DNA of 64,000 nt from Octopus vulgaris (taxonomy: Eukaryota): positions 147,374,001-147,438,000 of the forward strand of contig OX597817.1 of the NCBI GenBank assembly GCA_951406725.2, read 5' to 3'. Below the pieces are notes generated by a model. That model saw nothing but the letters and a program-made list of their open reading frames with translations. It did not search any database and was not told where the DNA came from. The translations under genes were made by a program, and so were the position numbers. Shown piece after piece: positions 15,459 through 56,478 of the stretch (its first letter is position 1; each line of letters opens with the position of its first letter).

Positions 15459-16250
15459 GGCGGTGAGCTGGCAGAAACGTTAACACGCCGGGCGAAATGC
15501 TTAGCGGTATTTCGTCTGCCGCTACGTTCCGAGTTCAAATTCCGCCGAGGTCGACTTTGCCTTTCATCCTTTCGGGGTCGATTAAATAAGTACCAGTTAC
15601 GCAATGGAGTCGGTATAATCGACTTAATCCGTTTGTCTGTCCTTGTTTGTCCTCTCTGTGTTTAGCCCCTTGTGGGTAGTAAAGAAATAGGTATTTCGTC
15701 TGCCGTTACGTTCTGAGTTCAAATACCGCCTTTACCTTTCATCCTTTCTGAGTCGATAAATTAAGTACCAGTTACGCATTGGGGTCGATATAATCGTTTT
15801 ATCCGTTTGTCTGTCCTTGTTTGTCCCCTCTGTGTGTAGCCTAGCACCTTGTGGGCAGTAAAGAGTTAGGTATTTCATCTGCCGTTACGTTCTGAGTTCA
15901 AATTCCGCCGAGGTTGACTTTGCCTTTCATCCTTTCGGAGTCGATAAATTAAGTACCAGTTACGCACTGGGGTCGATATAATCGACTTAATCTGTTTGTC
16001 TGTCCTTGTTTGTCCCCTCTATGTGTAGCCCCTTGTGGGCAATAAAGAAATAAGAATCGTTAGTACTGCGAGCAAAATGCCTTGCAGCATTTTATCCGTC
16101 TTCACCTCCTGAGTTCATATTCCACCGCGGTCAGCCTTGCCTTTTAACCTTTCGGAGTCGATAAAATAAGAACCATTTGAGTACTGAGGTTGATATAATC
16201 GATTTAGTGGCGCGCCCGAAATTGTTGGCCTTTTCTCAAAATTTTAAATC
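15459..16250 (+). mobile_element. SINE family B multimer (three Tx1-tailed units plus an old-tail unit)
   Basis: Head GGCGGTGAGCTGGCAGAAACGTT; units of about 180 bp; imperfect TSD ATCAAT(A/G)T(T/C)TACTGA at 15438-15452 and 16248-16262. Confidence 0.9.
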
Positions 16251-27526: not shown

Positions 27527-27631
27527 GAAGTAGAGAAGAAAATCGCTACCCACTACCTACACTCACACATCTGACATTTATATGTACACACACACACTCA
27601 CACACAGAAAGATGGTATGGATACATTTTAG

Positions 27632-27861
27632 GGCGGCGAGCTGGCAGAAACGTTAGCACGCCGGGCGAAATGCGTAGCCGTATCTCGTCTGCCGTTACGT
27701 CTGAATTCAAATGCTGCCGAGGTCGACTTTACCTTTCATCCTTTCGGGGTCGATAAATTAAGTACCAGTTACGCACTGGGGTCGATGTAATCGGCTTAAT
27801 CCGTTTGTCTGTCCTTGTTTGTCCTCTCTGTGTTTAGCCCCTTGTGGGTAGTAAAGAAATA
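27632..27861 (+). mobile_element. SINE family B monomer with Tx1-like tail and TSD
   Basis: TSD GGTAT(G/A)GATA(C/A)ATTTTAG at 27614-27631 and 27862-27879. Confidence 0.9.
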
Positions 27862-28339
27862 GGTATAGATAAATTTTAGTATGTATACATCTTCGTAAAG
27901 CAGTGTGTGTGCATGTTCTATGCTTTGTGAAAACGACTTAGCATTGGTGGTTCGCTTTCATGCTACAGTCACCAAACTGAACAGAACTCAATATAATAAG
28001 AAATGAAAAAACCTCACCGTTATATAGTGCTGCTACTAATTACACTATTGAATCGTTCACTTTATGTATATAGAGATTATTTTCAAGCATGTAATATTGA
28101 AGGTGAGACTAAAGTTAATCTTTTGTATTTTTATCAATAATTGCTCATAATTCCTTATTAGTATTTTAAAGTTTAGTTCTCAACAGTAATTCTTTAAAAT
28201 CAATAAATGTTTTTAAATAGTGGAGGACAGCGTTCACCACAACTTACAAAAAAGCTGTGTAATTTCAATAAATAAATGCTTGATAATGCGCCGACATGTT
28301 TGCTTAATAATAAAAAAATTGTATACTCTTTAATATCGT

Positions 28340-31327: not shown

Positions 31328-32598
31328 GGAGGGCTGGGCATGCCGTGGTTGATGATGCGCAGACACGCGCTGAGACTGCGACATCTCTGGCTCTATGTAG
31401 ACGACGGTGAACAGGTGTGGTCGCCGTTTGTGAGGCACGCTTTCCCGCAGCTCGTCTCCATGACCGAACTGCAGTCGTGGATCAAAAAGAGGCCGAGGAA
31501 GGGCGAATGGCACCGCGAGTGTCGCGTTGCTCTCAAGCAACTCTGCCGTCTTGGGTCGACCTTAAGTGACTTCAACACAACCAAAGCATTCTATAGGGGT
31601 TTAGTGGAGGGGAGGTACGACGACGAGCTCGGGGCGAACCTGGACGTCGACGAGGAGTACCTGACCCGCCTGTTCAGGACGACTTTCGGGCCAGGGCCCA
31701 TGGACAACTTCCAGAGATCCCTGGCCTGGCAGTGCTACCGAGAAGCGCTACCCGTTCGGGATAAGCTCTACAGACACGGCTCGAGAAACACGGGGCCGAC
31801 CTGCCCGAGATGCGGTCAGAGCGACGAAACCGTTCTGCACGCACTCGTTCAGTGTCCAACAATTTCCGACCTGTGGGCTTATGTCGAACAACTGCTGTCA
31901 CGTGTGGGACGAGTCGGTTTATCAGCTGAGTCTATCGTCAATATTGTCACGCCTCCTTCCTTCAAACGGGAAGGAAGAGCTATTTTCATCATCCTTGTGG
32001 CTATGGCGAAAGAATGTATCTGGTGGACGCGTCTGAAAGGATTGGAGACAAACACTTTCCTCTCTGGTCAATCTCTCATCAACTTCTTCAAGTACCACTT
32101 GAAAAGGAAAGTGAGAGTAGAGGGCAAGTTTTGTCTAGCGAATGTTTTAAAAAAAGATGGGTGAATGTAGCAAGAATGGCACGTATGAATGACGAAGCCA
32201 CCTTGAGCATAGTCCTATGAACCCAGAAATCGAAAACAGAGAGTTGCTTATTTGCAAAAAAAAAAAAAAAAAAAGAAATATAAAATGTGACTTCATTGAC
32301 CGAGGTTACCGTGGTCTTTTCCGTAGGCTTTTCTTTCCACGGGTAAACCTCACCTGTCCTCCCCTTTACACTTCATATTGACATTTCTGTGATAACGATC
32401 CCTATTGATCAATTTTTTTTCCTCTCCCCTTTTTTTTTTAACCCCCTTTTTTTTGTCCTCTTTCTCTCCTTTTACGATCCCTTTTGATCGAAACTCCCCC
32501 TTCCTTTTTTTTTTTTTTTTTTTTAAACCTTCAAAAGAAAAGCTCTACCTTGTAATTTGTTCTATCTGTGTGCAGCCCTGTGTGGCTAATAAAGAAAC
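31328..32598 (+). mobile_element. 5'-truncated Tx1/L1-clade LINE
   Basis: GC-rich ORF2 C-terminus, T-rich 3' UTR, ends GGCTAATAAAGAAAC then (ATCT)n. Confidence 0.85.
31340..32220 (+). pseudogene. Tx1/L1 ORF2 C-terminal fragment with zinc knuckle (zf-RVT-like)
   Basis: NFQRSLAWQCYREALPVRDKL...TCPRCGQSDETVLHALVQCP...LW; probable frameshift near 32120 into KKRWVNVARMARM...L*. Confidence 0.85.
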
Positions 32599-32619
32599 AT
32601 ATCTATCTATCTATCTACT

Positions 32620-40208: not shown

Positions 40209-40899
40209 ACCTATAATTATTGCTGCTCTGAGATATGTAACATACTGCCTAAATAACAATCTTGAGAAATTAGCCTTCTCAAAATCAGAAAGGAAGAACT
40301 TAAATCGAAGATGACAGATCCAGTTTATCACTGGAACTGTTTAAACCTGTAAGACTTTCTGGAAGTTTATCATTTAAATATATATGATCATGTCTAGATA
40401 TGTAACTATATGCATGAGAATATATACGTAAAACAGCACATAGAAATCTGCACATATACATCCATACGTACATACATCCATACATACATACATACATAGA
40501 TACATACATACATGGATGCGTATATACATACATACATACATGCGTTCATACATGCATACATAAATACATACATACATAAATATATGCATACATAATAGAA
40601 ACAAAAATACCCTGTTGATGTTGAAATTCAAATGAAGGAGCCTTGGATCTAGTTTAGAAACCGGCTCTTTCTCCATTTGCAAGAAATAGTGAAATAAAAT
40701 TGAACAGCGACATACATATATGCACATAGAGAAATGCATATACGTAGGTGCCAATGTGGCTATGTTAATAAGATCGCTTTGTAACCATTGCCAGATCTCC
40801 GGCACTATACTGCCGGCGCGACCATTGCATTTTGAGTGAATTTCCTGGACGGAAACTGTGTCGAAGTATGATTGTGTATCGTTGTGTTTGTCTCATACC

Positions 40900-41111
40900 T
40901 AGTTCTTTACTACCCACAAGGGGATAAACACAGAGGGGACAAACAAGGACAGACAAACGGATTAAATCGATTATATCGACCCCAGTATGCAACCGGTACT
41001 TAATTTATCGACCCCGAAAAGATGAAAGGCAAAGTCGACCTCGGCGGATTTTGAACTCAGAACGTAGCGAGGGGCGAAATACCGAGCTATCGATTCTGCC
41101 AGCTCGCTGCC
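40900..41111 (-). mobile_element. SINE family B monomer with TSD, inserted in an old family A copy
   Basis: TSD TTTGTCTCATACC at 40887-40899 and 41112-41124. Confidence 0.9.
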
Positions 41112-41599
41112 TTTGTCTCATACCACCTCCAGACAAAATGTGGTTGTTTGTTTGCATGCCAGGAACATAGAAGTTGGGCAAAAGAGTTCTCGATTTAAAA
41201 ATGATAACCGGAATTGATTTCTTTGACTATAACGTGTATGGCTGGAGCAAGTAAAAGATAAATAAGATATATAATCAGTCGTCATACGTGCAGAGTCCGT
41301 CGAGGATTTCATTGATAATTTCGATTGTGCCAACATTTTAGACGGATGGATGTAATCCTGTTTTAGCCGCATAGATGTAATCCTGTTTACTTTAATATCA
41401 CAAACATCTATTGGATTCGAAACACTTCGACTTCAAAGCGGCAACGAACTCTTTCATGTCTTTCCAACATAAAACTAATAATGCTACATACACACGCACT
41501 CACGCATGCACAAACACACACACATACACACACACACACACAAACACATACATATATCTACAGAAATACATACATACACATGCACATGTATTTATACAT

Positions 41600-56034: not shown

Positions 56035-56478
56035 GGCGGCGAGCTGGCAGACTCGTTAGTACGCCGGACGAAATGCGTAGCCGTATTTGTCTGCCGTTAC
56101 GTTCTGAGTTCAAATTCCGCCGAGTTCGACTTTGCCTTTCATCTTTTCGGGGTCGATTAAGTCAGTATCAGTCACGCACTGGGATCGATATAATTGACTC
56201 AATCCGTTTGTCTGTCCTTGTTTGTCCTCTCTTTGTTTAGCCCCTTGTGGGTAGTAAAGAAATAGGTATTTAGTCTGTCTTTACGTTCTGAGTTCAAATT
56301 CCGCCGAGGTCGACTTTGCCTTTCATCCTTTCGGGGTCGATAAATTAAGTATCAGTTACGCACTGGGGTCGATGAAATAAGCACCAGTTATGTATTGGGT
56401 CGATGTAATTGACTGAATCCCTTTGTCTGTACTTGTTGTCCCCTCTCTGTTTAACTCCCTGCAGGCAATAAAGAAATA
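56035..56478 (+). mobile_element. SINE family B dimer
   Basis: Head, then junction GTAAAGAAATA|GGTATTT; AAATACTGTTT repeated on both flanks. Confidence 0.9.

What the first reader, a model, noticed from the sequence alone, without database searches (positions are those of the whole stretch)
27614..27879. SINE B monomer whose TSD starts with GGTAT (target-site specificity, case 1)
Seen: the 18-bp TSD GGTAT(G/A)GATA(C/A)ATTTTAG shows that the GGTAT after the tail was already in the target, in sequence unrelated to SINE B. It is the same pentamer found at array junctions. Known: many Tx1-clade endonucleases are sequence-specific. Inference: the SINE inherits a GGTAT preference from its partner LINE.
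Basis: partly seen in the sequence, partly recalled or inferred. Interest (0 to 1): 0.72.

Follow-up and report, generated by a model that had tools for sequence, protein, structure and literature searches.

The report
SINE landing at mimics of itself
A very common short jumping repeat lands at GGTAT about ten times more often than a control word, and GGTAT is also the spot inside the repeat's own front end where related long retrotransposons insert, so the repeat likely borrows their aiming machinery in a looser form.

Summary
Observation confirmed. A 230-nt SINE ends at AAAGAAATA and is flanked by an 18-bp TSD (16/18) that starts GGTAT. Genome-wide, GGTAT lies just upstream of the head in 763 matches for 5,847 full-length copies (13.0%), against 77 (1.3%) for the reverse complement. 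In 95 called TSDs GGTAT starts 13 (166x background), but TATAT starts 18 and NNTAT 50, so the preference is graded, not strict. The inference is largely supported. A LINE group with an RT zinc-finger region and a related tail joins the SINE's own head site in about 75 of 84 exact-tail copies. Those junctions are mostly CGTAT (50), with GGTAT in 21; two sampled subfamilies use GGTAT (24/30, 10/12). SINE TSDs never start CGTAT (0/95), the rate differs between SINE lineages (15.8, 10.5, 6.6%), and the best tail-matching LINE shows 0/20 GGTAT. So the partner is not pinned down, and RNA-primer pairing may contribute. Tx1 membership is inferred, not shown. The precedent is crocodilian SINEU/Tx1-Mar. 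This scan reported the SINE-head-targeting LINEs before, on other DNA of this genome.

The parts
27614..27631 (+). 5' copy of the target-site duplication, starting GGTAT, preceded by AT
   Evidence: 16/18 identity with the 3' copy
27632..27861 (+). SINE B monomer, 230 nt; internal marker of the GCGTAGCC lineage
   Evidence: 5,847 exact head+tail copies genome-wide
27642..27652 (+). Pol III box A-like motif (motif form recalled, not from a call)
   Evidence: sequence only; Rfam gave no match
27679..27687 (+). The SINE's own head site (position 49; here CGTATCTCG, elsewhere (G/C)GTATTTCG), where array units restart and where the head-targeting LINEs join
27703..27714 (+). Pol III box B-like motif (motif form recalled)
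   Evidence: sequence only
27800..27861 (+). LINE-like tail ending AAAGAAATA; last 28 nt match LINE 3' ends at 27/28 (1132-aa family), 25/28 (fam418 element), 22/28 (fam417)
27862..27879 (+). 3' copy of the target-site duplication, starting at the first base after the tail
15459..16201 (+). SINE array: full unit, two units restarting at position 49 after GGTAT, one restarting at position 16
40887..41124 (-). Second monomer in the window with a 13-nt TSD starting GGTAT
   Evidence: read from the flanks
31328..32599 (+). 5'-truncated LINE piece (zf-RVT) with a related tail, followed by a TATC microsatellite; a sister family, not shown to be the partner

Best explanation
This SINE copy sits at a target that starts GGTAT, a word enriched about tenfold at the family's insertion sites, and it was likely inserted by the enzyme of a Tx1-like LINE lineage whose own copies sit at the (G/C)GTATTTCG site in the SINE's head. 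Shown: the SINE ends at AAAGAAATA, the TSD starts at the next base (median 16 nt), a pyrimidine usually precedes it, and TSD starts are graded around GGTAT. LINE copies with a related tail join the head site in the same register. Inferred: the LINE protein binds the SINE tail, nicks the bottom strand at ATACC/R-like steps and primes reverse transcription there. In trans the specificity is relaxed, so most SINE copies land at NNTAT mimics in ordinary DNA, TA runs most often because they are abundant. A minority land in other SINE heads, which feeds the arrays. Primer-RNA pairing and other partner LINEs probably modulate the mix.
For: GGTAT 763 vs control 77 matches for 5,847 copies. Fold over background by mismatches to GGTAT: 166, 8.4, 3.6, 0.7, 0.3, 0.2 in 95 TSDs; NNTAT 50 of 95. 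Base before the TSD in 57 clean junctions: C25 T18 A13 G1; in 19 GG-start targets it is a pyrimidine in 16, and only 1 has the RNA's TA there, so this flank preference is not RNA pairing. GGTAT is symmetric between the two TSD copies, 15/20 and 15/19. fam417 LINE: 24 of 30 sampled copies joined to GGTAT, 9 of 30 with zf-RVT upstream. Host head upstream in L486 (12-nt duplication) and L477. Off-target copy L484 sits at AT|GGTAT with a 15-nt TSD in ordinary DNA, the same context as this locus. The 12 closest fam418 copies all join the head site, 10 with exact GGTAT. Precedent: SINEU families share the Tx1-Mar target with weaker specificity, 90%, 23%, 13% (PMC4494074, section 14).
Against: Exact-tail fam417 copies genome-wide are CGTAT 50, GGTAT 21, other 13 of 84 (CGTAT tallied by eye from the full listing). 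SINE TSDs are CGTAT 0, GGTAT 13 of 95, although the two words are similarly common (717 vs 988). The best tail match (27/28) is the 1132-aa family, with 0 of 20 GGTAT and 0 of 20 NNTAT junctions. The GGTAT rate depends on SINE lineage: 162/1,025 vs 174/1,651 with the same last 23 nt (p=9e-5), and 54/824 for the other tail. Where the TSD copies differ in the first 5 nt, the 3' copy is nearer a tail word in 26 cases vs 5 (7 ties), mostly added TA; only 4 vs 0-1 in the GG class. No intact ORF2 of a GGTAT-joined family was recovered.
Confidence: 0.55

Rival explanations
1. A loosely specific endonuclease nicks at many Y^R-like sites. Read-through SINE RNA from array sources, continuing GGUAUUU after the tail, then selects the nicks whose primer can pair with it. 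The pentamer would be set by the RNA, not the enzyme.
For: Lineage dependence of the GGTAT rate. The lineage with more position-49 arrays in the sample (18/46 vs 8/43) has more GGTAT targets and more GGTATTT: 48/162 vs 32/174, background 18%. G-only at +1 while the LINE uses C or G. 3'-biased mismatches, 26 vs 5. Four terminal matches suffice for L1 priming (PMC3649969, abstract). Co-transcribed target strengthens targeting in R2/R1 (PMC4494074, passage).
Against: GGTAT is as often 5' without 3' as 3' without 5' (4 vs 5). About a third of the 48 GGTATTT rows are insertions into other SINE heads (by eye), which a head-targeting enzyme also predicts. LINE junctions follow the host base (CGTAT in a C-type host, L488). 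The pyrimidine before the site does not match the RNA.
Confidence: 0.28
2. Several LINE families share the AATAAAGAAA-type tail and each mobilises the SINE at its own sites: head-targeting families give GGTAT, a microsatellite family gives TATAT, and the relaxed 1132-aa family gives the rest.
For: At least six families carry related tails with different targets: TC repeat 30/30, TATC, other fixed junctions. The 1132-aa family has the closest tail and the same TSD register and length, 16-21 nt in 6 of 18 fetched copies. Lineage differences would follow from changing partners over time.
Against: 0 of 95 SINE TSDs start CTCT. The 1132-aa family's junctions lack NNTAT (0/20 vs 50/95, p=3e-6). One graded motif fits the enrichment curve.
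Confidence: 0.14
3. GGTAT is simply the end of the SINE, or a chance match in AT-rich DNA.
For: My first, tail-inclusive query returned many GGTATAG ends, an ascertainment effect.
Against: Only 20 of 119 monomers chosen without regard to flanks have GGTAT after the tail. Tenfold enrichment on the 5' side.
Confidence: 0.03

Closest known systems
SINEU-1/2/3 with Tx1-Mar in crocodilians (PMC4494074; passages and section 14 read)
   Same: The SINE shares the target of a target-specific LINE, with weaker specificity in some families (90%, 23%, 13%); tandem insertions; about 16-nt TSD.
   Different: There the target is a third element (Mariner-N4_AMi). Here it is the SINE's own head, the SINE carries a LINE-like tail, and most copies land at short mimics in ordinary DNA.
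Kibi and Koshi, microsatellite-specific Tx1 families (named in PMC4494074 passages; the primary paper was not read)
   Same: Sister LINE families in this genome sit at TC repeats (30/30) and at TATC repeats.
   Different: These are not the SINE's targets (0/95 CTCT).
L1/Alu target choice: endonuclease consensus plus primer-RNA pairing (PMC3649969, abstract)
   Same: Degenerate nick site, about 16-nt TSD, possible 4-5 nt pairing at priming; nearest solved relative of the 1132-aa ORF2 is L1 ORF2p (E 3.5e-66).
   Different: No poly(A) tail; a fixed 3' end at AAAGAAATA; the motif is GGTAT/NNTAT, not TT/AAAA.
Octopus tRNA-SINEs OR1/OR2 and the MetaSINE/CORE superfamilies (PMC4824008, PMC4758252, passages)
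   Same: tRNA-type head, central region shared with a SINE of another tail, LINE-derived tail.
   Different: No reference sequence was on hand, so identity with any named family was not tested; neither paper's passages mention a Tx1 partner or a target preference for these.

Membership tests
tRNA-derived SINE | Short, high-copy, non-coding, flanked by variable TSDs | tested here: met
   230 nt; 5,847 + 824 exact copies; TSD called in 95 of 133
tRNA-derived SINE | tRNA-related head with Pol III boxes A and B | tested here: inconclusive
   Box-like motifs seen by eye (recalled forms); Rfam no match at E<=1; transcription not examined
tRNA-derived SINE | 3' tail shared with a LINE | tested here: met
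   27/28, 25/28, 22/28 over the last 28 nt with three elements
Tx1-clade LINE (partner candidates) | ORF1 plus ORF2 with APE endonuclease, RT and C-terminal zinc motif (L1 group) | tested here: met
   1132-aa family: Exo_endo_phos, RVT_1, zf-RVT; ORF1 zf-CCHC; best PDB hit L1 ORF2p. For fam417 only the zf-RVT region was seen (9/30)
Tx1-clade LINE (partner candidates) | RT phylogeny groups with named Tx1 elements | tested here: inconclusive
   No named Tx1 reference returned: atlas names hypothetical, 9 homologues at 25-31%, fish hypothetical proteins or unnamed; my tree held only own-genome rows. PMC13282606 lists L1-Tx1 families in an octopus (passage)
Tx1-clade LINE (partner candidates) | Target preference (Kojima's rule: over 20% of flanks) | tested here: met
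   fam417 about 75 of 84 at the SINE head; TC family 30/30. Not met for the 1132-aa family (20 junctions, no shared site)
SINEU-type target-inheriting SINE | SINE shares the target of a specific LINE | tested here: met
   Same site and register at array junctions (24 of 31 GGTAT) and relaxed mimics elsewhere
SINEU-type target-inheriting SINE | U1/U2 snRNA-derived head | tested here: not met
   No Rfam match; it works like SINEU but is not a SINEU
SINEU-type target-inheriting SINE | Mobilisation by that LINE's protein | not testable with these tools
   Needs a trans-retrotransposition assay

The most novel reading that the evidence does not exclude
A closed LINE-SINE loop in which the LINE homes to the SINE's own head and the first base of the site (G or C) is read by RNA, not protein. 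Read-through from SINE arrays would then guide new copies to GGTAT mimics and into other SINE heads, and LINE subfamilies would switch between GGTAT and CGTAT by changing RNA: a natural RNA-assisted targeting system in an L1-group element, testable on thousands of insertions.
Probability: 0.25. Interest if true: 0.75.

Novelty: new variant of a known kind. Interest (0 to 1): 0.47.

Why it matters
Few SINEs have a measured target preference traced to a target-specific LINE; SINEU is the case I found in print. Here thousands of off-target SINE insertions map the relaxed specificity of the machinery, and lineages differ in their use of GGTAT. That makes an old question testable: how much of target choice in L1-group elements comes from the endonuclease and how much from primer-RNA pairing. 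It also offers an origin for the SINE arrays. The single locus is ordinary; the value is in the family-wide pattern, which this scan has already noted on other DNA.

Tried and rejected
GGTATAG as an RNA-templated tail: it came from my tail-inclusive query and did not hold in flank-blind samples. A strict GGTAT link to one tail subtype: none appeared in the first 30 C-tail loci, but it is 54/824 genome-wide. The sample odds ratio for lineage (11/19 vs 3/26) shrank to 1.6 genome-wide. The TC-specific LINE as partner: 0/95 CTCT. The 1132-aa family as source of GGTAT: 0/20; pattern search 0. Searches for a LINE with the full SINE tail found nothing usable: none; two SINE variants; eleven rows that look like SINE variants from the listing, loci not examined. 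A scan of 1.55 Mb of held loci for non-SINE tails at the head site printed none. A stable tail hairpin: z 0.07 and 0.27. The tree of C-terminal ORF2 pieces missed the 1132-aa family and had two frameshifted long rows, so it was not used. PMC7265360 passages gave nothing on pairing. A by-sequence look-up of earlier findings was empty. No complex, structure or read-mapping job was run.

Full report
Observation. The SINE spans 27632-27861 and ends AAAGAAATA. GGTATGGATACATTTTAG (27614-27631) and GGTATAGATAAATTTTAG (27862-27879) flank it with 16 of 18 matches. The window holds arrays whose later units restart at SINE position 49, GGTATTTCG, or position 16, AGAAACG. The genome is 2.8 Gb and rich in microsatellites. 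That it is an octopus is taken from earlier scan notes and was not tested.

Genome-wide test. Exact head-plus-tail patterns give 5,847 copies with the GGGTAGTAAAG tail and 824 with GGGCAATAAAG. GGTAT 3-22 nt upstream of the head gives 763 matches, 13.0%; ATACC gives 77, 1.3%. Sixty evenly spaced 10-kb stretches give 1.65% per 20 positions. One copy can give two matches.

Shape of the preference. I examined 160 copies chosen without regard to flanks: the first 90 listed of 5,847 and the first 70 of 824, all on contigs C1 and C2. I dropped 25 that continue into another SINE tail and 2 duplicates; 95 of the remaining 133 gave a TSD starting at the base after the tail, with the first 5 nt left out of scoring. 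The caller passes 84 of 119 monomers and 75 of 2,949 shuffled pairs; in TA runs the register can slip. Median TSD is 16 nt. Target starts were TATAT 18, GGTAT 13, AATAT 6, AGAAA 5. Per site, GGTAT is 166-fold enriched, one-mismatch words 8.4-fold, two-mismatch words 3.6-fold, and NNTAT covers 50 of 95. The base before the TSD in 57 clean junctions is C25 T18 A13 G1. GGTAT is target-derived: 15 of 20 monomers with it on the 3' side have it 5', and 15 of 19 the other way round.

Partner LINEs. The tail resembles 3' ends of many LINE families with RT and zf-RVT. One sits at TC repeats in 30 of 30 copies; 0 of 95 SINE TSDs start CTCT. A low-copy family with an open 1132-aa ORF2 (endonuclease, RT, zf-RVT) has the closest tail, 27/28, and TSDs of 16-21 nt in the same register in 6 of 18 fetched copies. 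Its 20 junctions show no GGTAT and no NNTAT (the GGTAT difference alone is not significant, p=0.12).

Head-targeting LINEs. Earlier scan notes pointed to LINEs that insert in the SINE head, and I tested this. Two of 64 rows were LINE-like tails joined to GGTATTTCG. Searching with them gave two groups. In fam417, 24 of 30 copies join GGTAT, most continuing as SINE position-49 sequence, and 9 of 30 have zf-RVT upstream. In fam418 the 12 closest copies all join the site (10 exact GGTAT), and the 18 more distant relatives do not; no coding region was seen for it. L486 has the host head upstream with a 12-nt duplication, and L477 has the head with none. L484 lies in ordinary DNA at AT|GGTAT with a 15-nt TSD, as this locus does. 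An exact-tail pattern listed 84 copies: CGTAT 50, GGTAT 21, other 13; about 75 are at the head site (tallies other than 84 and 21 are by eye). The LINE target is thus the SINE head, and the first base appears to differ by subfamily.

Results against the simple reading. SINE TSDs start GGTAT 13 times and CGTAT never, though the words are similarly common. Lineages with the same last 23 nt differ: 162/1,025 vs 174/1,651 (p=9e-5), and the other tail gives 54/824. GGTATTT makes up 48 of 162 vs 32 of 174, against 18% background; about a third of the 48 are insertions into other SINE heads. Where TSD copies differ in the first 5 nt, the 3' copy is nearer GGTAT, TATAT or AGAAA in 26 cases vs 5, with 7 ties. 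I chose those words after seeing the data, most cases are added TA, and the GG class gives 4 vs 0-1. These results fit RNA-primer pairing or changing partners as added factors.

Mechanism. Most likely the SINE tail recruits the ORF2 of a head-targeting family, which nicks at ATACC/R-like steps and starts reverse transcription at AAAGAAAUA (inferred). Specificity is looser for the SINE than for the LINE. Insertions into other heads give arrays: 26 of 90 G-tail copies are followed by a position-49 unit, and some TSDs flank whole arrays. That fits either transcription of composites or head replacement; I did not separate them.

Comparison and novelty. SINEU with Tx1-Mar is the precedent for a SINE inheriting a Tx1 target with weaker specificity (PMC4494074; passages; section 14 whole). 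Kibi and Koshi are cited there for microsatellite targets. L1 priming needs four terminal matches (PMC3649969, abstract). PMC4824008, PMC4758252 and PMC13282606 (passages) name octopus SINEs and L1-Tx1 families; the passages give no target data. Searches listed no paper whose title or abstract start describes a LINE targeting its own SINE's head. The library lacks most subscription papers and Repbase, and no supplements were read. Tx1 membership is inferred from domain layout and behaviour. Verdict: real, a new variant of a known kind, already noted by this scan elsewhere in the genome; interest 0.47.

Noticed in passing
window 31328-32599: 5'-truncated LINE piece between TATC microsatellites, with a 278-aa open C-terminal stretch (zf-RVT); relatives L031, L052, L065, L084 also end at TATC repeats.
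   Followed up: partly
L283-L312 (e.g. L308:2-1711): Young LINE family (96-98% alike) joined to TC repeats in 30 of 30 copies, Kibi-like; it ends in the same 12 nt as the C-tail SINE.
   Followed up: partly
L337, L347, L348, L350; L343-L345, L354, L361; L351: Further LINE families with fixed 3' junctions in other repeats or an ATT microsatellite; one family lies in tandem at about 5.4-kb spacing on C2 near 73.05 Mb.
   Followed up: no
window 15682-15697 and all position-49 junctions: The junction AAAGAAATA|GGTATTTC holds a 5-bp inverted repeat (GAAAT/ATTTC) with a 4-nt spacer; the tail end is complementary to the top strand of the head site. Folding gave no support for a stable hairpin.
   Followed up: partly
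window 16053, 19796, 55290, 14106: A second restart point at SINE position 16 (AGAAACG) follows mainly the C-type tail (8 of 70 C-tail vs 0 of 90 G-tail first junctions), and AGAAA starts 5 of 95 TSDs.
   Followed up: partly
25 of 160 sampled copies; window 14521-13982, 55520-55142: Composites in which SINE B is followed by positions 50-166 and a different tail (the other SINE type) are common.
   Followed up: no
window 56035-56478: Array flanked by a TSD starting AATAC rather than GGTAT.
   Followed up: no
rows ending AAAGAAATA (7 of 84): Copies with the fam417 tail but the SINE's terminal A sit off the head site, mostly at NNTAT-like words, whereas those ending T sit on it.
   Followed up: no
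L017, L022: Two independent SINE insertions at the same GGTATAGAAG site of another repeat.
   Followed up: no
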